Sequence record: OP595146.1
Strand: one strand, 5' to 3'
Length of the DNA stretch: 64,000 bases
Source of the DNA: Escherichia phage vB_EcoM_DE17
Below are positions 59,079 to 64,000 of the stretch, piece by piece. How positions within the stretch are numbered: the stretch's first letter is position 1; each line of letters starts with the position of its first letter. A program made the translations under genes and the position numbers. A model generated the notes under the pieces. That model had not been told where the DNA came from, ran no database searches, and saw nothing but the letters and a program-made list of their open reading frames with translations.

Positions 59079-59153
59079 TGGAGAATCCGAAGGGACTCGA
59101 ACCCTTATAAACCTGTTTTGCAGACAGGCACATATCCATTTCTGTCACGGATT
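59079..59153 (-). tRNA. tRNA-Cys (anticodon GCA)
   Basis: Hand-folded: acceptor gaatccg/cggattc, T-arm AAGGG-TTCGAGT-CCCTT, loop CTGCAAA, CCA encoded. Confidence 0.7.
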
Positions 59154-59157
59154 CAAA

Positions 59158-59250
59158 TTGGAGGAAGATACCAGACTTGAACTGGTACACCGATTTCTCA
59201 GCTACTGGCAGTTTAGCAAACTGCTCCCTTACCTTTTAGGGTTAATCTTC
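59158..59250 (-). tRNA. tRNA-Ser (anticodon GCT), class II
   Basis: 93 nt; anticodon stem GCAGT/ACTGC, loop TTGCTAA, long variable arm, T-arm ACCAG-TTCAAGT-CTGGT. Confidence 0.65.
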
Positions 59251-59252
59251 CA

Positions 59253-59987
59253 TTATTTCTGTAATGCGTTCTTCATTTCTGGTGTTGCAATAGTGTCAAT
59301 TACACCAGTTTTACAAGCATCATCAAACCAGTCTGGTAAGATACCTGCTAAGAACCCATTGATATTCGTTTTAAGGTACTCTGCAATAAGGGCAGCTTCT
59401 TCTTCAATCATCTGCACAACTTCATCTGCATAAGCTGTAATCTTTGAGATACCTTCATTAATCTTACTAACAGCTTGGTTAGCTAAATCAGAAATAGTAT
59501 CAAGACCTTTATCAATAGCATCCTGTAAGTCACTTAATACATCATTAACACCGTCTAGTGCACTGTTAATCGTATCCATAGCTTTTTGACCATACTCTGT
59601 AGCAACACCCATAATACCACTAAATGGTGTACAGCCAACTTGTTCACCTGCTGCACCCATAACATTAGAATAGCCTTTTGCTACCTGCATACGTGAGGAA
59701 AACTCATCAATGGACTTTTGACCATAATCTGTCAGTGTCTTAGTAGTTGATGTAGTGCTTGTCAGACTCGTTGTAAAGCTGTTAAGCAGAACTGTTGTAA
59801 GTCCAGCAGCAACAAGTTTATCTTTTATTGTAGGGTCTGTTACAGAGCTAATAGAGCTTACAAGTGATGTAGAGGCAGCTACGGTTCCACCGAGAACTGC
59901 TGCACCAGTAATAAGGGGATTAGAAAACCCTCTACCGGTTTTTAAGAGATTAAAAATCTCCTTACCTTGTTCTGTCATCTCTTTCAT
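59253..59987 (-). CDS. hypothetical Ser/Thr-rich protein embedded in tRNA cluster
   Basis: About 244 aa; start set to ATG at 59987 (MKEMTEQ) so it does not overlap the tRNA at 60004..60080; ends 3 nt before tRNA-Ser. Confidence 0.45.
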   Translation of the reverse strand: MKEMTEQGKEIFNLLKTGRGFSNPLITGAAVLGGTVAASTSLVSSISSVTDPTIKDKLVAAGLTTVLLNSFTTSLTSTTSTTKTLTDYGQKSIDEFSSRMQVAKGYSNVMGAAGEQVGCTPFSGIMGVATEYGQKAMDTINSALDGVNDVLSDLQDAIDKGLDTISDLANQAVSKINEGISKITAYADEVVQMIEEEAALIAEYLKTNINGFLAGILPDWFDDACKTGVIDTIATPEMKNALQK

Positions 59988-60003
59988 TAAGCACCTTTGG
60001 AAT

Positions 60004-60080
60004 TGGTAGTCCAGTGGGATTTGAACCCTCTTCTCATGTTTTTCAGACACGCGCTTTAACCATATAAGCTACTTGGACTA
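60004..60080 (-). tRNA. tRNA-Phe (anticodon GAA)
   Basis: T-loop TTCAAAT, anticodon loop CTGAAAA; one T-stem mismatch in hand fold. Confidence 0.6.
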
Positions 60081-60085
60081 TAAAT

Positions 60086-60161
60086 TGGGGTGACCTACGG
60101 GATTTGAACCCGTATAGACCATGTTCACAGCATGGGTCATTACCATTTATGATAAGGCCAC
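60086..60161 (-). tRNA. tRNA-His (anticodon GTG)
   Basis: Anticodon stem CCATG/CATGG, loop CTGTGAA; T-arm ACGGG-TTCAAAT-CCCGT. Confidence 0.65.
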
Positions 60162-60192
60162 ATTTAAGGACTCTCGTAAGAACCCTTAGAAG

Positions 60193-60268
60193 TGGCAGCG
60201 GCATAAGGATTTGAACCTTAATAAGACAGCTTCAGAGACTGCTGCATTGCCAGTTATGCTATACCGCT
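60193..60268 (-). tRNA. tRNA, probably Gln (anticodon CTG)
   Basis: T-arm TAAGG-TTCAAAT-CCTTA; anticodon loop CTCTGAA on a stem with two G-U pairs. Confidence 0.5.
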
Positions 60269-60273
60269 AAATT

Positions 60274-60352
60274 TGGTACTCCATATCGGATTCGAACCGA
60301 TACATAACACAGATTTTAAGTCTGGCCTCTCTGCCAATTGGAGTAATGGAGC
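60274..60352 (-). tRNA. tRNA, isotype uncertain (loop suggests anticodon TAA)
   Basis: T-arm ATCGG-TTCGAAT-CCGAT, CCA encoded; loop CTTAAAA; short variable arm is atypical for Leu. Confidence 0.5.
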
Positions 60353-60354
60353 AT

Positions 60355-60429
60355 TGGCGGGGGATGTTGGAATTGAACCAACTTCTTCGATTTCAAAGAC
60401 CGAGGTTTTAACCTTGTAAACTAATCCCC
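60355..60429 (-). tRNA. tRNA-Gln (anticodon TTG)
   Basis: T-arm GTTGG-TTCAATT-CCAAC, loop CTTTGAA; 1-72 mismatch in hand fold. Confidence 0.55.
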
Positions 60430-60438
60430 TTTAAATCT

Positions 60439-60996
60439 TTACTTTCTCAGTGGATGAATAAAGAATGCCAACATAACTCTTTCCCTTGAGAATGCTCTTT
60501 CTTCTGGGACAACACTTTTTAGCTTCCATCCAACATAAATTCTCCAGTAGAATTGTTTACCAAAGACTTTAATTGATGGGATAAAAGCGAATAATCCCCA
60601 AGCATTACTGTTCCACATTAGGAGATAACCTGTCTGATTATCTTCAGGGTTAGAACTTACGTTGATATTACCTTTCCACTTAGTAACATCTTTTACATCT
60701 CTTCCTAATACATGGTAAGAGAAGTTATAAGCTTTGTTTCTCCAGAGCCAACCAACTCTCTGCATATAGACACCAAGCTTGCCAATCTTTCTAATCTTAG
60801 CCCATCGTTCGACATGCCCTTTATCACCATCAATTGGGTTGTCATATGTCTCCATCCATCTGAAGCCGAAAGGTAAGTGTCCTTTCTTCTCACTGTAAAA
60901 TGGAACTACAAAAGGTGCTAAGATAACTGCTAAGATTGCTGCAAATGGTTCTAACAAAGCTAAGAAAATCCATGAAGCATACTTCAAATATCTCAT
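60439..60996 (-). CDS. membrane protein embedded in tRNA cluster
   Basis: 185 aa; N-terminal hydrophobic helix ASWIFLALLEPFAAILAVILAPFVV; flanked by tRNAs. Confidence 0.5.
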   Translation of the reverse strand: MRYLKYASWIFLALLEPFAAILAVILAPFVVPFYSEKKGHLPFGFRWMETYDNPIDGDKGHVERWAKIRKIGKLGVYMQRVGWLWRNKAYNFSYHVLGRDVKDVTKWKGNINVSSNPEDNQTGYLLMWNSNAWGLFAFIPSIKVFGKQFYWRIYVGWKLKSVVPEERAFSRERVMLAFFIHPLRK

Positions 60997-61015
60997 CTAA
61001 ATAGCCTCTTTAAAT

Positions 61016-61091
61016 TGGCGCAGGATAAGGGATTCGAACCCCTATTAACAGCTTCGTAGACTGTTGCTCTATCCATTTGAACTAATCCTGC
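61016..61091 (-). tRNA. tRNA-Arg (anticodon ACG)
   Basis: Acceptor gcaggat/atcctgc, T-arm GGGG-TTCGAAT-CCCTT, loop CTACGAA. Confidence 0.7.
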
Positions 61092-61204
61092 TTACCTACA
61101 AGAACACCATACAGTTTTTCACAAGAGTTGTTTTTACGCCTGTTTTTGAATGACGCTATAAACTTTTTTGCAATTGACTTATTACTCATAGTGTTCTCCT
61201 AAAA

Positions 61205-61283
61205 TTGGTGTTCCAAGACGGATTCGAACCGTCACTAGTACAAGGTTTGAGCTTGCATCCTCTGCCAATTGGGATACTGGAAC
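61205..61283 (-). tRNA. tRNA, isotype uncertain (loop suggests anticodon CAA)
   Basis: T-arm GACGG-TTCGAAT-CCGTC; D-stem ATCC/GGAT; loop CTCAAAC; short variable arm. Confidence 0.5.
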
Positions 61284-61284
61284 A

Positions 61285-61359
61285 TGGTACTCACTAAAGG
61301 ACTTGAACCTTTTTCTTCATCTTGTAAGGGTGATGTTTTACCATATAAACTAAGCGAGT
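61285..61359 (-). tRNA. tRNA, possibly Val (anticodon TAC)
   Basis: T-arm AAAGG-TTCAAGT-CCTTT; loop CTTACAA with one stem mismatch. Confidence 0.5.
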
Positions 61360-61455
61360 ATGAAAGAGGTCTGAAGTTGTGCCGCTAACTCAACTCCGTG
61401 GGATTTGTTACGGTCTTCAGTTGACTCAAAGCGGTCTTTCACTTGACCTCTAAAT

Positions 61456-61531
61456 TGGTGCTCCCACAAGGATTCGAACCCTGATAAGTTGCTTACAAGG
61501 CAACCGTAATAGCCAATTATACGATAGGAGC
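61456..61531 (-). tRNA. tRNA-Thr (anticodon TGT)
   Basis: Perfect anticodon stem GTTGC/GCAAC, loop CTTGTAA. Confidence 0.7.
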
Positions 61532-61538
61532 ATTAATT

Positions 61539-61613
61539 TGGAGCATCCAGAGGGAATCGAACCCTCAACATCAGTTTGGAAGACTGTAATTTTCCCGTTT
61601 AAACTATGGATGC
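61539..61613 (-). tRNA. tRNA-Gly (anticodon TCC)
   Basis: T-arm GAGGG-TTCGATT-CCCTC, loop CTTCCAA. Confidence 0.65.
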
Positions 61614-61619
61614 ACTAAT

Positions 61620-61695
61620 TGGTGGAGTCACTGAGAATTGAACTCAGTTCCCAAGTTTGCAAAACTCGAATTTTAACCATATAAACTATGACCCC
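61620..61695 (-). tRNA. tRNA-Ala (anticodon TGC)
   Basis: Acceptor GGGGTCA with G3-U70 pair typical of tRNA-Ala; loop TTTGCAA. Confidence 0.7.
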
Positions 61696-61701
61696 ATTGT
61701 T

Positions 61702-61777
61702 TGGTACAGGTGGAGGGAATTGAACCCATCGTCTTACTGATTAAGAGTCAGCCGCATAACCATTTTGCTACACCTGC
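61702..61777 (-). tRNA. tRNA-Lys (anticodon CTT)
   Basis: Loop CTCTTAA on stem GCTGA/TCAGT; T-loop TTCAATT. Confidence 0.6.
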
Positions 61778-61784
61778 ATTAATT

Positions 61785-61862
61785 TGGTAGGAGACAAGGG
61801 ATTCGAACCCTCAAACACCAACTTCTAAGGATGGTAGGTTTACCAATTACCGTCAATCTCCC
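61785..61862 (-). tRNA. tRNA, isotype uncertain (loop suggests anticodon TAG)
   Basis: T-arm GAGGG-TTCGAAT-CCCTT, CCA encoded; loop CTTAGAA; D-arm fold ambiguous. Confidence 0.5.
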
Positions 61863-62116
61863 ATTAAATCTTTTTAGAGAACTTCTAAGAACCTAAGCAA
61901 CAAGGTTCCACAACAAGCTGTAATAACCTTAGAAGCCCTCTAAAAAGACCTAAATTGGTCTTTGCATAGTCTTGTTTAATCCGGTGACTAGAACCTTTGG
62001 AGAGCTTGATATTATCTCTTCTCCGTGACACCTACTAGGTGCTTTATCAGTGTGTACGACAATACACGAGGGATACCAAAGCAACATCCGAATGAAGCTT
62101 GGCTTTAAATCTTATT

Positions 62117-62207
62117 AGGCGGTAAGTAAAGGAGTCGAACCCTCACCGTATCTCTACAGTGGCAACTGTTTTCAAGACAGTTTGGCTACCATTAGCCGCT
62201 ACCTACC
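62117..62207 (-). tRNA. tRNA-Ser (anticodon TGA), class II
   Basis: 91 nt; perfect anticodon stem ACTGT/ACAGT, loop CTTGAAA, long variable arm; 3' CCA not encoded. Confidence 0.7.
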
Positions 62208-62220
62208 CCTAATAAGACTT

Positions 62221-62303
62221 TGGCATGGGACGGAGGAGTTGAACCCCTTTGAAACGGTTTTGGAGGCCGTTGCTCATGCCTTAGAGTCTTAACATCGTCC
62301 CAC
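62221..62303 (-). tRNA. tRNA-like gene, isotype uncertain (possibly Trp, anticodon CCA)
   Basis: T-loop TTCAACT and paired acceptor ends; 83 nt; internal fold ambiguous; candidate loop CTCCAAA. Confidence 0.45.
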
Positions 62304-62445
62304 ACTATAATTCGAAGCTTACCGTATTTTCGCAACACTGTAAAGCCCCTTCTCAGATTATTTACATGTTCTGGAAAACATGAGATACAGACCACCTCCT
62401 TACACGGAGACCCGATAAGGTCGTCTAAGCAATCTGCTAACTATT

Positions 62446-62522
62446 TGGCACACCCTACAGGATTCGAACCTGTAACTAACGATTTAGAAGACCGTTGCTC
62501 TATCCAATTGAACTAAGGGTGC
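62446..62522 (-). tRNA. tRNA-Arg (anticodon TCT)
   Basis: T-arm ACAGG-TTCGAAT-CCTGT, loop CTTCTAA; D-arm near-identical to tRNA-Arg(ACG). Confidence 0.7.
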
Positions 62523-62814
62523 ATTAATCTTTAAAGACTCTCTTAGAAAGCCCTTAAAGATGCCCACCTTATTAATCATACCGTGGGCGAGTACGCCAAA
62601 TTCTTTGATGAGGGATTGGAAGACCTCACTGGTGTTTAGCCTATCAAGCTACTGCCAGAAAAACATTGTCGTTTGCATTTATTTTAAGTTTGCAAAATAG
62701 ACGCTACGCAACGAAAACTATTCAGAATATGTACAACAAATTTCCCCACATTGTGTTACGTCTAACACTCATGTATTGGTGTTTGAATTATACATATTAT
62801 GAAGTATTTTAGTT

Positions 62815-62843
62815 ACTATAAAGTGGTCACACCTCAATGTCAA
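62815..62843 (-). promoter_or_regulatory. sigma70-like promoter inside tRNA cluster
   Basis: Minus strand TTGACA-N17-TATAGT in an AT-rich spacer between tRNA-Ile and the tRNA-free region 62523..62810. Confidence 0.45.
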
Positions 62844-62858
62844 CAACTTTATTGAAAT

Positions 62859-62934
62859 TGGTACTGGTAGGTGGAATCGAACCACCGATGTTCCCTTATC
62901 AGGGGAGTGTTATAACCTTCTTAACTATACCAGC
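62859..62934 (-). tRNA. tRNA-Ile (anticodon GAT)
   Basis: T-arm GGTGG-TTCGATT-CCACC, loop CTGATAA. Confidence 0.65.
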
Positions 62935-62935
62935 T

Positions 62936-63012
62936 TGGAGGTTCAGATGGGAATCGAACCCACATTCATAGGGCTTATGAAACCCCTGCATTACCTTATC
63001 TGCGACTGAACC
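62936..63012 (-). tRNA. tRNA-Met (anticodon CAT)
   Basis: Loop TTCATAA on stem GGGGT/GCCCT; T-arm GTGGG-TTCGATT-CCCAT. Confidence 0.65.
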
Positions 63013-63016
63013 ATAT

Positions 63017-63092
63017 TGGTAGAAGTGGAGGGATTCGAACCCATCGCCTGTCAGATTAAAAGTCTGCCGCATCACCATTCTGCTACACTTCC
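63017..63092 (-). tRNA. tRNA-Lys (anticodon TTT)
   Basis: Loop CTTTTAA; acceptor and T-arm similar to the tRNA-Lys(CTT) copy. Confidence 0.65.
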
Positions 63093-63236
63093 ATTAAATC
63101 ATCTTTGTAGATAAGCTACCCAGACTTGCTTAAGGTCTGTAGCGATGTGCATTGTTGGGTTTAAATCTAGAATTTACCCTTTCACCCTTTGTGGTCGCAT
63201 ACTCACAGGTAAGCTTAATAGCTCACCTACAAAGAT

Positions 63237-63380
63237 AATTACCAGACCGTTGTTTATCATCTTAAGTGCTACCATTACACCAACTCGACATCTGCCGAGT
63301 GAAGGAATCGAACCTTCGCCTTTTCTTTACCGGAGAAATAGATTGTTTAAGTTTTGCTGTAAACGGTCTTCTGTAAATTT
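63237..63380. repeat. repeat copy 1 (attaccagaccgt ... ttttgctgtaaacggtcttctgtaaattt) carrying a tRNA-like T-arm insert
   Basis: Terminal motifs shared with copy 2; the two ends can pair (agaccgt / acggtct); about 95 nt between them includes gccgagt-GAAGG-aatcgaa-CCTTC with no matching 5' acceptor. Confidence 0.5.
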
Positions 63381-63546
63381 GTTGAGCCAGACCAAGTTTA
63401 AATTTTTCAAAATTAAATTGGCTTGAAATTTTAAGTAACTTGCTGAATTTGGTCTTCTGCTCCTTTAAAGAATACTCGTAAGAACTCTTTAAGGGAGGGG
63501 CTAAATAGCCCTCTCAAAACATCATCTTGAAATACTTATTATAATT

Positions 63547-63624
63547 TGGCGGTTACGAAGGGATTTGAACCCTCATCATCTCCCGTGACAGGGGAGTATT
63601 TTAACCAGATTAAACTACATAACC
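63547..63624 (-). tRNA. tRNA-Asp (anticodon GTC)
   Basis: Perfect anticodon stem CTCCC/GGGAG, loop CTGTCAC; T-arm GAGGG-TTCAAAT-CCCTT. Confidence 0.75.
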
Positions 63625-63630
63625 TTTATT

Positions 63631-63718
63631 TGGTGTGCCGTGTAGGAGTCGAACCTACCGAGTCTCAATGACAAGGGATTTACAGTCCCCACCGCTACCA
63701 TCTACGGGATAACGACAC
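63631..63718 (-). tRNA. tRNA-Tyr (anticodon GTA), class II
   Basis: 88 nt; loop CTGTAAA; long variable arm; T-arm GTAGG-TTCGACT-CCTAC. Confidence 0.7.
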
Positions 63719-63788
63719 ATTTATTATTCTATTCAGGCTAAGGACTTGCACCTTACAAATCGGTGAGCAATCGCTTCTCTCCTAAATT

Positions 63789-63865
63789 TGGCGGTTAGTC
63801 AGGGATTCGAACCCTGTGCCATTCGCTTAACAGGCGACCGCACATACCTTATGTGCTTCCTAACC
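63789..63865 (-). tRNA. tRNA-Asn (anticodon GTT)
   Basis: D-stem GCAC/GTGC, loop CTGTTAA, T-arm CAGGG-TTCGAAT-CCCTG. Confidence 0.65.
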
Positions 63866-63951: not shown

Positions 63952-64000
63952 GGAGGCGGGTGCAGGAGTCGAACCTGCCGATACCATGCTAATGAGACAT
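63951..64000 (-). tRNA. tRNA-Met/fMet (anticodon CAT), 5' part beyond window
   Basis: 3' half only: CCA, acceptor ACCCGCC, T-arm GCAGG-TTCGACT-CCTGC, loop CTCATTA. Confidence 0.5.

What the first reader, a model, noticed from the sequence alone, without database searches (positions are those of the whole stretch)
60274..61862. Three short tRNAs whose hand-folded loops carry Leu-type anticodons (TAA, CAA, TAG)
The tRNAs at 60274..60352, 61205..61283 and 61785..61862 have canonical T-arms and encoded CCA but are only 78-79 nt with 6-7 nt variable regions. My best hand folds put TAA, CAA and TAG in the anticodon position, which together would read all six Leu codons. Bacterial and known phage tRNA-Leu are class II with long variable arms, so either my folds are off or these are structurally unusual. 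I could not find Pro, Glu, Trp or Leu among the cleanly folded tRNAs.
Basis: inference. Interest (0 to 1): 0.45.

Follow-up and report, generated by a model that had tools for sequence, protein, structure and literature searches.

The report
Armless leucine tRNAs in a coliphage
The three short tRNAs are real leucine tRNA genes of a Felix O1-like phage; they lack the long extra arm that textbook leucine tRNAs carry, a form that turns out to be common in phages but is hardly discussed.

Summary
The window is a Felix O1-like myovirus (Felixounavirus). On its minus strand ARAGORN and Rfam find three tRNA-Leu genes: UAA at 60274-60352, CAA at 61206-61283 and UAG at 61785-61862. They are 78-79 nt long, encode CCA, and have variable regions of only 7, 6 and 5 nt.

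The genes keep the D arm of bacterial leucine tRNAs (3-bp stem, 11-nt loop) and every nucleotide that E. coli LeuRS is reported to need: A73, U8-A14, A15-U48, G18G19 and A20a. Only the arm, which LeuRS does not need, is missing. Ser and Tyr tRNAs in the same array keep long arms.

These genes have been annotated as tRNA-Leu since the Felix O1 genome paper, which does not comment on the arm. Armless ("type I") tRNA-Leu is not unique. It accounts for 38 of 131 Leu tRNAs in a sample of viral contigs. It also occurs in T5-like coliphages, in Lactobacillus, Aeromonas and Pseudomonas phages, in bacterial tRNA arrays and in Actinomycetota chromosomes.

The most likely role is as working tRNAs, charged by host LeuRS, that supply UUA, UUG and CUN codons. 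Charging is inferred, not shown. Verdict: a new member of a known kind, of moderate interest.

The parts
60274..60352 (-). tRNA-Leu(UAA), 79 nt including the encoded CCA; anticodon at 60318-60316. It has a G1-U72 wobble and A73. The D stem is 3 bp and the D loop is CAAUUGGCAGA. The anticodon stem is 4 bp plus a C27-U43 mismatch. The variable region is 7 nt (GUUAUGU), ending in U48.
   Evidence: ARAGORN. Rfam 47.5 bits. Type I Leu model R1 71.2 bits, the top hit in the window. It is 100% identical in most of 263 phage records.
61206..61283 (-). tRNA-Leu(CAA), 78 nt including CCA; anticodon at 61249-61247. It has G1-C72 and A73. The D arm has the same architecture and D loop as the UAA gene (D stem UCC/GGA instead of CUC/GAG). 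The anticodon stem is 5 bp, plus a U26-A44 pair. The variable region is 6 nt (ACUAGU), ending in U48.
   Evidence: ARAGORN. Rfam 43.6 bits. R1 68.4 bits. It is at least 95% identical in 247 phage records and 84% identical in Erwinia Ounavirinae.
61785..61862 (-). tRNA-Leu(UAG), 78 nt including CCA; anticodon at 61827-61825. It has G1-U72 and A73. The D stem is weak: G12-C26 and G13-C25, plus either A10-U27 with a bulged C11 or U14-A24. The D loop is (U)AAUUGGUAA(A). This allele has a U-U mismatch in the anticodon stem, and A37 instead of the host's G37. The variable loop is 5 nt (UGUUU). It is the most deviant of the three.
   Evidence: ARAGORN. Rfam 40.0 bits. R1 61.7 bits. The Felix O1-type allele differs by fully compensatory changes in the anticodon stem. 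The Si3 GenBank record labels the homologue 'tRNA-pseudo'.
59079..63865 (-). Context: a tRNA array of 23 genes, all on the minus strand. Its Ser tRNAs (59159-59251, 93 nt; 62118-62207, 90 nt) and its Tyr tRNA (63631-63718, 88 nt) keep long class II arms. The array continues beyond the end of the window.
   Evidence: ARAGORN. Synteny with Felix O1 and pinkbiff.

Best explanation
These are three working phage-encoded leucine tRNAs of the armless ('type I') form. I infer that they are transcribed with the rest of the minus-strand array and cut out by host processing enzymes; the 3' CCA is encoded in each gene (shown). Host leucyl-tRNA synthetase then charges them with leucine. This should work because they retain the elements the E. 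coli enzyme is reported to use: discriminator A73, the U8-A14 and A15-U48 tertiary pairs, G18G19 and A20a in a Leu-type D loop, and a canonical T loop for the elbow. They lack only the long variable arm, which bacterial LeuRS does not need. They would decode UUA/UUG (UAA), UUG (CAA) and CUA/CUG, probably also CUU/CUC (UAG). These codons are much more common in this 39% GC phage than in its hosts. Loss of the arm is confined to Leu because SerRS and bacterial TyrRS do use the arm, which is why Ser and Tyr tRNAs in the same array keep theirs. Shown here: gene structure, identity nucleotides, conservation, compensatory change, codon usage and distribution. Inferred: expression, processing, charging and decoding.
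For: The D arm has the same 3-bp stem and 11-nt loop as host leuZ, leuX and leuW, which are 85-87 nt and carry arms. A73, U48, A14, A15, G18G19 and A20a are present in all three genes. The same positions are invariant in 56 diverse viral type I Leu tRNAs; U8, A20a, U48 and A73 were not imposed by my search pattern. The E. coli identity set, and the dispensability of the arm and anticodon, are taken from PMC9976931. A covariance model built from those 56 sequences ranks the window's Leu genes first at 71.2, 68.4 and 61.7 bits; the next best is Cys at 57.9, and Ser and Tyr score 15-23. The family shows strong covariation: 98.2% standard pairs against 57% in shuffles, 0 of 500 shuffles as high, and 19 of 20 pairs with changes on both sides. 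Selection on the window genes themselves is visible. The UAA gene is at least 99% identical in 215 of 263 phage records, while the surrounding 2.3 kb is mostly 90-99% identical. The two alleles of the UAG gene differ by three fully compensatory pair changes, and a fourth change repairs the U-U mismatch. In 49 long ORFs of the window, Leu codons are TTA 27.5%, CTT 27.2%, CTG 15.7%, TTG 13.5%, CTA 10.3% and CTC 5.7%. In E. coli, CTG is about half of Leu codons (my own knowledge of the K-12 codon table). The Felix O1 paper also lists Leu[TTA] among codons helped by phage tRNAs. Ser and Tyr tRNAs stay long in this window, in the first 120-locus set of viral contigs and in bacterial arrays. Another phage that grows on E. 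coli K-12, the T5-like IrmaTschudi, also carries a 77-nt Leu(UAA).
Against: There are no expression or charging data for these tRNAs. E. coli LeuRS failed in vitro to charge the one natural bacterial type I tRNALeu that has been tested, S. coelicolor tRNALeu(CAA). Those authors state that EcLeuRS charges only type II tRNALeu (PMC6614811). However, they give that tRNA C48 rather than U48. The UAG gene in this window has a U-U mismatch, a weak D stem and A37 instead of G37, and one GenBank record calls its homologue a pseudo-tRNA. The codon-supply argument is correlative. The promoter and terminator scan found no more sites than chance.
Confidence: 0.75

Rival explanations
1. Loss of the arm is an anti-defence adaptation. 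On this view the phage brings leucine tRNAs that host toxins or nucleases cannot grip or cut, because those enzymes recognise class II tRNAs through the long arm. Translation of Leu codons then continues after host tRNA-Leu is inactivated. This is compatible with the main explanation; it differs only in why the arm was lost.
For: Phage tRNAs are known to rescue translation from tRNA-targeting defences (papers seen). The MenT3 toxin uses the long variable loop as an anchor (PMC11541572). [quoted passage not shown] VapC52 cuts inside the long variable loop of tRNASer (PMC13273310). Short Leu tRNAs sit in larger arrays, with a median of 12 against 5 tRNAs per locus. They also occur in mobile bacterial arrays that have been proposed as anti-defence elements.
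Against: No arm-dependent toxin acting on tRNA-Leu is known in E. coli or Salmonella. In the cited work MenT3 prefers Ser, not Leu. Ser and Tyr tRNAs in the same arrays keep their arms, so the protection would be partial. Actinomycetota carry solitary chromosomal type I Leu genes, showing the form exists without any phage context. Nothing in the window tests this idea.
Confidence: 0.15
2. One or more of the three genes, above all the UAG gene in the allele seen here, is a decaying pseudogene that is carried along with the array and is not used in translation.
For: The three have among the lowest general tRNA-model scores in the array; UAG is the lowest of all Rfam tRNA matches at 40.0 bits. 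The UAG gene has a U-U mismatch, a D stem with only 2-3 pairs, and A37 where tRNAs for CUN codons normally have G37. The Si3 record calls it tRNA-pseudo. Natural deletions have fused the CAA and UAA genes into chimeras in FG1m and Si3, so not all three are indispensable.
Against: The U-U allele is at least 99% identical in 70 phage records. A distant viral homologue (L048) has a U-U mismatch at the same stem position (by my reading of the sequence). The alternative allele differs by compensatory pairs. Mijalis has replaced the gene with a different type I Leu(UAG) rather than losing it. All identity nucleotides are intact, and the type I Leu model scores the gene at 61.7 bits.
Confidence: 0.07
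3. The tRNAs are charged with an amino acid other than leucine, or serve a role outside translation such as a decoy, primer or regulator.
For: The published isotype-model margins are small for the UAG gene: Leu 67.4, Ile2 65.7, Lys 63.4. The doubt about EcLeuRS and type I substrates also leaves room.
Against: Anticodons UAA, CAA and UAG exclude the synthetases that read the anticodon. None has a G3-U70 pair for AlaRS or a long arm for SerRS or TyrRS (by my reading of the sequences and the folds). A73 plus the Leu-type D loop is the Leu signature. The three anticodons form a coherent Leu decoding set that recurs in unrelated phages such as LpeD.
Confidence: 0.03

Closest known systems
Felix O1 tRNA-Leu genes Felix01t009, t015 and t018 (NC_005282; Whichard et al. 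2010, PMC3185647), and their homologues in Felixounavirus, Mooglevirus and Suspvirus
   Same: They are the same genes in the same order within the array. The UAA gene is 100% identical, the CAA gene differs at one variable-loop base, and the UAG gene is 88.5% identical to Felix O1 itself and 100% identical to Sf13, SUSP1 and FG1m. They were already annotated as Leu with TAG, CAA and TAA.
   Different: Nothing substantive. The window carries the minority UAG allele with a U-U mismatch. Neither the Felix O1 paper nor the Sf14 tRNA study (PMC12482277) mentions the missing arm; the word 'variable' occurs zero times in each.
Type I tRNALeu(CAA) of Streptomyces coelicolor (NAR 2019, PMC6614811) and the solitary short Leu(UAA/CAA) genes of Actinomycetota chromosomes
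   Same: Both are bacterial-style tRNA-Leu with a variable loop of about 5 nt and A73. Both have the D arm ..CCCAAUUGGCAGAGG.. that closely matches the window's UAA and CAA genes. They coexist in the cell with class II Leu tRNAs.
   Different: The Actinomycetota genes are cellular and chromosomal, and are charged by an actinobacterial LeuRS whose leucine-specific domain is reported to be needed for type I substrates. That enzyme does not use A73. The same paper reports that E. coli LeuRS cannot charge the Streptomyces tRNA. The window's tRNAs must work in Enterobacteria, and two of them have 6-7 nt variable regions.
E. coli class II tRNA-Leu (leuZ UAA, leuX CAA, leuW UAG)
   Same: They have the same anticodons. 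They share A73, the 3-bp D stem, an 11-nt D loop of the form N-AAU(U/C)GG(U/C)AGA, U8-A14, A15-U48 and A20a. G1-U72 is shared with leuZ.
   Different: The host tRNAs are 85-87 nt with variable regions of 12-15 nt, drawn as a stem-loop for leuZ and leuW. leuW has G37. There is no detectable nucleotide similarity by blastn in 5,426 E. coli genomes.
Armless tRNA-Leu in other phages and in mobile tRNA arrays
   Same: The architecture and the invariant nucleotides are the same, and the arrays often hold the same UAA/CAA/UAG trio. Examples are Lactobacillus phage LpeD, Aeromonas phage AhP_Mru1, the T5-like coliphage IrmaTschudi, Pseudomonas phage vB_PseuGesM_254, more than 120 IMG/VR contigs, and arrays in Acidobacteriota, Cylindrospermum and Polyangia. 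The window's UAG gene is 82-84% identical to a Leu tRNA of T5-like phages.
   Different: Most of these have exactly 5-nt variable loops and cleaner stems. As far as I could find, they have never been described as a group.
Animal mitochondrial tRNA-Leu (type I)
   Same: [quoted passage not shown]
   Different: From my own knowledge, the mitochondrial tRNAs have degenerate D and T loops and floppy structures, and use a dedicated mitochondrial LeuRS. The window's tRNAs have canonical G18G19 and T-loop elbows. The resemblance lies in arm loss only, not in descent.
Phage T5 tRNA-Leu(UAG) and T4 tRNA-Leu
   Same: They are phage-encoded Leu tRNAs in arrays interspersed with homing endonuclease genes.
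   Different: The T5 gene is 85 nt with a class II arm. T4 tRNA-Leu is also class II (from memory, not checked here).

Membership tests
tRNA (Rfam RF00005) | A cloverleaf that scores above the family's gathering threshold of 29 bits | tested here: met
   The scores are 47.5, 43.6 and 40.0 bits, full length over model positions 1-71. ARAGORN calls all three.
Bacterial tRNA-Leu (isotype) | An anticodon of the NAA or NAG Leu set in a 7-nt loop with U33 | tested here: met
   The loops are CUUAAAA, CUCAAAC and CUUAGAA. tRNAscan-SE annotations in relatives give the same anticodons.
Bacterial tRNA-Leu (isotype) | The E. coli LeuRS identity set: A73, A15-U48, G18G19, A20a, U8-A14 and D/T-loop tertiary pairs (PMC9976931) | tested here: met
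   All these nucleotides are present in all three genes. The same positions are invariant in 56 viral type I Leu tRNAs.
Bacterial tRNA-Leu (isotype) | Leucylation by LeuRS | not testable with these tools
   This needs an aminoacylation assay. One report found that EcLeuRS does not charge a Streptomyces type I tRNALeu.
Bacterial tRNA-Leu (isotype) | An isotype-specific covariance score that is highest for Leu | tested here: met
   Published tRNAscan-SE 2.0 isotype scores for the near-identical Sf14 genes put Leu first at 67.4, 49.1 and 60.2. In-session model R1 ranks the three genes above all other tRNAs of the window. The margin for UAG is small in both tests.
Class II (type II) tRNA | A variable region longer than 10 nt that forms a stem-loop | tested here: not met
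   The variable regions are 7, 6 and 5 nt with no stem. Host Leu tRNAs have variable regions of 12-15 nt.
Class II (type II) tRNA | A 3-bp D stem with an enlarged D loop (position 13:22 unpaired) | tested here: met
   UAA and CAA have a 3-bp stem and an 11-nt loop, identical in layout to leuZ, leuX and leuW. UAG is similar, with a bulge or a shifted register.
Type I (armless) tRNA-Leu, as in S. coelicolor tRNALeu(CAA) and the viral/array family defined here | A Leu anticodon, A73 and a Leu-type D loop, with a variable loop of about 5 nt | tested here: met
   The UAA and CAA genes carry 2 and 1 extra variable-loop bases relative to the 5-nt consensus.
Type I (armless) tRNA-Leu, as in S. coelicolor tRNALeu(CAA) and the viral/array family defined here | Scores as a member with a covariance model built from independent members (less than 80% similar to the window genes) | tested here: met
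   R1 gives 71.2, 68.4 and 61.7 bits, E-values of 8e-21 to 8e-18, as the top three hits.

The most novel reading that the evidence does not exclude
Armless leucine tRNAs may be a general signature of mobile tRNA arrays (phages and horizontally transferred bacterial arrays), selected because the long arm is a handle for host defence enzymes that attack class II tRNAs. Leu would be the one class II isotype that can shed the arm, because bacterial LeuRS ignores it. A corollary is that E. coli and Salmonella LeuRS do charge natural type I tRNALeu, contrary to the only published test.
Probability: 0.15. Interest if true: 0.7.

Novelty: new member of a known kind. Interest (0 to 1): 0.4.

Why it matters
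Reviews still state that leucine tRNAs carry a long arm everywhere except in animal mitochondria (PMC9976931). The single study of a bacterial armless tRNALeu concluded that E. coli LeuRS cannot use such a substrate (PMC6614811). Here well-studied coliphage and Salmonella phage lineages (Felix O1-like, and some T5-like) carry conserved armless Leu tRNAs with the full E. coli identity set.

This gives a ready natural test of whether enterobacterial LeuRS really ignores the arm. It also gives compact Leu tRNA scaffolds for engineering. And it raises a concrete question about why mobile tRNA arrays shed the arm for Leu but never for Ser or Tyr.

If the answer is simply that the arm is dispensable and was deleted, the finding is a tidy confirmation of synthetase recognition rules and not more.

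Tried and rejected
1. 'The folds are off and these are other isotypes.' Rejected by ARAGORN, Rfam, tRNAscan-SE annotations, published isotype scores and my own covariance model.

2. A host origin or host copy. blastn of the UAA gene against 5,426 complete E. coli genomes found nothing.

3. T5 as a precedent. Its tRNA-Leu(UAG) is 85 nt and class II.

4. A prior description of armless Leu tRNAs in phages. Six full-text searches and reading of the Felix O1, Sf14, tRNA-array, phage-tRNA-evasion and Schlafen papers found none. This is absence in the held library only.

5. Bacterial Schlafen as an arm-dependent threat. The paper reports cleavage in the anticodon arm and does not mention Leu.

6. The Sargen and Helaine prophage-competition paper is not held.

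7. The promoter and terminator scan found sites at chance frequency. One good -35/-10 match on the minus strand at 62843-62815 is noted but not relied on.

8. I did not attempt a census of all phage tRNA-Leu.
Full report
WHAT THE WINDOW IS. A 2.3-kb stretch around the finding matches 312 phage records. Most of these are Escherichia, Salmonella, Shigella and Citrobacter phages. The records I fetched belong to the genus Felixounavirus and sister genera of the subfamily Ounavirinae. Identity is 98.8% to Escherichia phage KEP1 and 95.8% to Salmonella phage Felix O1. The window is about 39-40% GC. Its 3' end holds an array of 23 tRNA genes, all on the minus strand.

CHECK OF THE OBSERVATION. ARAGORN calls tRNA-Leu(taa) at 60274-60352, tRNA-Leu(caa) at 61206-61283 and tRNA-Leu(tag) at 61785-61862. 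The Rfam tRNA model matches all three at full length with 47.5, 43.6 and 40.0 bits, against a gathering score of 29. All three end in A73-CCA and have 5-bp T stems with a UUCGAAU loop.

The three genes occupy the same places in the Felix O1 record, where they are annotated tRNA-Leu. The 2010 genome paper lists them as Leu TAG, CAA and TAA with Cove scores of 52.24, 46.15 and 57.88 (PMC3185647). So the genes were already known. That paper says nothing about their shape.

ANATOMY. Side by side with the host's cognate genes (leuZ 87 nt, leuX 85 nt, leuW 85 nt), the phage UAA and CAA tRNAs have the same layout up to the anticodon arm. This is a 7-bp acceptor stem, U8, a 3-bp D stem and an 11-nt D loop. 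The phage loop is CAAUUGGCAGA; the host loops are GAAUCGGUAGA, AAAUCGGUAGA and AAAUUGGUAGA. After the anticodon stem the host tRNAs have variable regions of 12-15 nt, drawn as a stem-loop for leuZ and leuW. The phage tRNAs have 7, 6 and 5 unpaired bases.

Two of the phage tRNAs have a G1-U72 wobble, as does host leuZ. The UAG tRNA is the odd one. Its D stem has only two secure G-C pairs, plus either A10-U27 with a bulged C11 or U14-A24. Its anticodon stem has a U-U mismatch. It has A37 where the host tRNA has G37.

The Ser tRNAs (93 and 90 nt) and the Tyr tRNA (88 nt) of the same array keep long arms.

IDENTITY. According to the Giegé and Eriani review, E. coli LeuRS needs A73, the A15-U48 pair, G18G19, A20a and the D/T-loop tertiary pairs. 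It does not need the anticodon or the long arm, and variants lacking both the anticodon arm and the variable arm remain active (PMC9976931). All of these nucleotides are present in the three phage genes, and in each the last variable base before the T stem is U.

Published tRNAscan-SE 2.0 isotype scores for the almost identical genes of Shigella phage Sf14 put Leu first for all three: 67.4, 49.1 and 60.2. The margin is narrow for UAG (PMC12482277).

As an independent test I built a covariance model from 56 viral armless Leu tRNAs, each less than 80% similar to the window's genes. It ranks the three window genes first at 71.2, 68.4 and 61.7 bits. The next best are Cys at 57.9 and Arg at 55.6, and the class II Ser and Tyr genes score 15-23. 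This reverses their poor ranking under the general tRNA model.

EVIDENCE OF SELECTION. The UAA gene is at least 99% identical in 215 of 263 phage records. The surrounding 2.3 kb is mostly 90-99% identical.

The UAG gene exists in two alleles. The window's allele, with the U-U mismatch, is at least 99% identical in 70 records. It is also found in Sf13, SUSP1 and FG1m. The allele of Felix O1 and pinkbiff differs in the anticodon stem at eight positions. These convert C-G to U-A, A-U to U-A and C-G to G-C, and convert U-U to C-G, so every change preserves or restores pairing. Si3 carries six of these eight changes and keeps the outermost C-G pair.

Citrobacter phage Mijalis has a different Leu(UAG) at this place, and it too is armless at 77 nt. 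In FG1m and Si3 a deletion has fused the CAA and UAA genes into chimeras. So the full set of three is not always kept.

CODON SUPPLY. In 49 non-overlapping ORFs of at least 120 codons, Leu codons are TTA 27.5%, CTT 27.2%, CTG 15.7%, TTG 13.5%, CTA 10.3% and CTC 5.7%. In E. coli K-12 CTG makes up about half of Leu codons and CTA about 4% (my own knowledge of the standard codon table). The three anticodons therefore cover the codons that the phage uses in excess. The Felix O1 paper draws the same inference for TTA.

HOW UNUSUAL IS THIS? It is not accurate.

Blastn with the UAA gene also hit a 77-nt Leu(UAA) in Aeromonas phage AhP_Mru1 (Demerecviridae) and short Leu tRNAs in Lactobacillus phage LpeD (Herelleviridae). 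LpeD has the same trio of UAG, UAA and CAA at 74-77 nt.

I then scanned IMG/VR for a pattern that demands a Leu-type D loop, an NAR anticodon and a T loop only 13-18 nt downstream. The scan hit its 120-locus limit. In those loci ARAGORN finds 215 Leu tRNAs, of which 160 are 74-80 nt (146 unique sequences). Ser tRNAs stay at 81-97 nt, apart from one 72-nt call, and Tyr at 82-94 nt, apart from one 78-nt call.

Relaxing the gap to 13-43 nt, so that both classes can match, gave 38 short and 93 long Leu tRNAs in 120 loci. That is 29% short. The short ones lie in larger arrays.

The short Leu family is diverse, with 107 clusters at about 85% identity. A73 is present in 138 of 146 unique sequences. 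It covaries strongly: 98.2% standard pairs against 57% in shuffles, 0 of 500 shuffles as high, and changes on both sides at 19 of 20 pairs.

Cultured examples include the T5-like coliphage IrmaTschudi, isolated on E. coli K-12, and Pseudomonas phage vB_PseuGesM_254, both checked with ARAGORN. Mycobacterium and Streptomyces phages also gave blastn matches annotated tRNA-Leu, which I did not check for length. The window's UAG gene is 82-84% identical to a Leu tRNA of many T5-like phages, which suggests exchange between unrelated phages of the same hosts.

THE SAME FORM IN CELLULAR GENOMES. Most hits were solitary 75-77-nt Leu(UAA) or Leu(CAA) genes, mainly in Actinomycetota such as Nocardia, Rhodococcus, Mycobacterium, Corynebacterium, Bifidobacterium, Arthrobacter and Streptomyces. 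About a dozen hits (11 loci with at least 8 tRNAs in 8 kb) were dense tRNA arrays in Acidobacteriota, Cylindrospermum, Polyangia and others. In nearly all of these every Leu tRNA is 74-79 nt, while Ser and Tyr are long; one array (L190) also holds a 93-nt Leu(tag).

This fits two published facts. S. coelicolor has a natural type I tRNALeu(CAA) (PMC6614811). In M. tuberculosis only three of the Leu tRNAs (tRNALeu-2, -3 and -5) are said to have long loops (PMC11541572).

The actinobacterial D arm (UAGCCCAAUUGGCAGAGGC) is nearly the same as in the window's UAA and CAA genes. I did not try to resolve whether this reflects common descent or a shared constraint.

MECHANISM AND ITS WEAK POINT. The best-supported reading is that these are ordinary decoding tRNAs charged by host LeuRS, and that the arm was lost because it is dispensable for Leu but not for Ser or Tyr. 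The pattern 'Leu short, Ser and Tyr long' holds in the window and, with few exceptions, in the viral sample and in the bacterial arrays. That is what the synthetase recognition rules predict.

The weak point is that charging is inferred. In the only direct test of a natural bacterial type I tRNALeu, E. coli LeuRS gave no leucylation. The authors state that EcLeuRS charges only type II tRNALeu. They give that tRNA C48 rather than U48, and its cognate enzyme does not use A73. So the result may not transfer to the phage tRNAs, but it cannot be dismissed.

Conserved armless Leu tRNAs occur in two unrelated phage groups that grow on E. coli K-12. This argues that the host enzyme does accept them.

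A MORE INTERESTING BUT UNPROVEN READING. Several toxins use the long arm. MenT3 anchors on it. The abortive-infection toxin AbiEii appears to prefer class II tRNAs. VapC52 cuts inside the tRNASer variable loop. Phage tRNAs are an established way of escaping tRNA-targeting defences, and bacterial tRNA arrays have been proposed as anti-defence elements. Arm loss could therefore be an escape route open only to Leu. Nothing here tests this. No arm-dependent toxin of tRNA-Leu is known in Enterobacteria. I give it about 15%.

LITERATURE. Six full-text searches and the papers read turned up no description of armless Leu tRNAs in phages or in tRNA arrays. The library covers open-access papers only, so this is not proof of absence.

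VERDICT. The feature is real and correctly read, and the genes were already annotated. Its structural class is known from mitochondria and Streptomyces and is, on this evidence, common in phages. It is a new member of a known kind. Interest is moderate, because it offers a clean natural test of LeuRS arm-independence in Enterobacteria and raises the question of why mobile arrays shed this arm.

Noticed in passing
window 62226-62301 (minus strand): An unannotated tRNA-like element lies between Ser(tga) and Arg(tct). It has a 7-bp acceptor-like stem, a T arm (GGGG/UUCAACU/CCUC) and a stem-loop with the loop sequence C-CUCCAAA-A. That loop would give a Trp-like CCA anticodon, closed by a C-A mismatch. 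ARAGORN does not call it even at relaxed thresholds. It scores 23 bits with Rfam tRNA-Sec (E 0.39) and 16 bits with R1. It is 90-99% conserved in six relatives.
   Followed up: partly
window 63300-63350 (minus strand): A partial tRNA match (Rfam tRNA 22 bits, model positions 7-64; a T-arm hit with R1 at 63301-63317) lies between Lys(ttt) and Asp. It is probably a tRNA remnant.
   Followed up: no
window 63962-64000 (minus strand): The window ends inside the array. A T-arm hit at 63962-63978 sits where relatives have a second Met tRNA, followed by Glu and Pro (pinkbiff L002 6424-6751).
   Followed up: partly
L005 3999-4076 (Salmonella phage FG1m); L348 about 2599-2677 (Salmonella phage Si3): Deletions between the CAA and UAA Leu genes have produced chimeric tRNA-Leu genes with mismatched acceptor or T stems. 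The crossover is in the T loop in FG1m and in the D loop in Si3.
   Followed up: partly
L006 2296-2387 (Lactobacillus phage LpeD); L010 4469-4560, L021 4203-4294, L045 4722-4815, L062 5908-5999; bacterial arrays L134, L136, L166, L211: ARAGORN 'tRNA-Ile(tat)' genes of 89-99 nt with a long extra arm whose loop is conserved in many of them (..GCGCCAGAUUAGCG..). 20 of the 22 have A73. So the same mobile arrays hold a class II-shaped tRNA with anticodon UAU alongside Leu tRNAs that have lost their arm. Its identity is unknown. Compare the nematode V-arm tRNAIle(UAU), which is charged with Leu (PMC4300185, abstract seen).
   Followed up: no
L350 6987-7067 and 11734-11814 (Escherichia phage IrmaTschudi, T5-like): The tRNA-Tyr is only 81 nt with a 9-nt variable region, and the tRNA-Leu(tag) is 81 nt with an 8-nt variable region. 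These shortened arms suggest that arm reduction in phage arrays is gradual and may not always be limited to Leu.
   Followed up: no
GenBank GU169904.1 'Staphylococcus phage SA1' (hits H11, H134): A 147-kb record labelled as a Staphylococcus aureus phage contains Felix O1-like sequence, 97-100% identical to this window, including the Leu(UAG) gene. It looks like a mixed or mislabelled assembly.
   Followed up: no
L127-L246 (genome-contig hits): Solitary 75-77-nt tRNA-Leu(UAA/CAA) genes with A73 and a 5-nt variable loop are widespread in Actinomycetota chromosomes (Nocardia, Rhodococcus, Mycobacterium, Corynebacterium, Bifidobacterium, Arthrobacter). This is far beyond the single Streptomyces case described in the literature.
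   Followed up: partly
window 62843-62815 (minus strand): A near-consensus sigma-70-like promoter match (TTGACA, 17-nt spacer, TATAGT) lies just upstream of the Arg(tct)...Leu(UAG) part of the array. Overall counts of such sites are at chance level.
   Followed up: no
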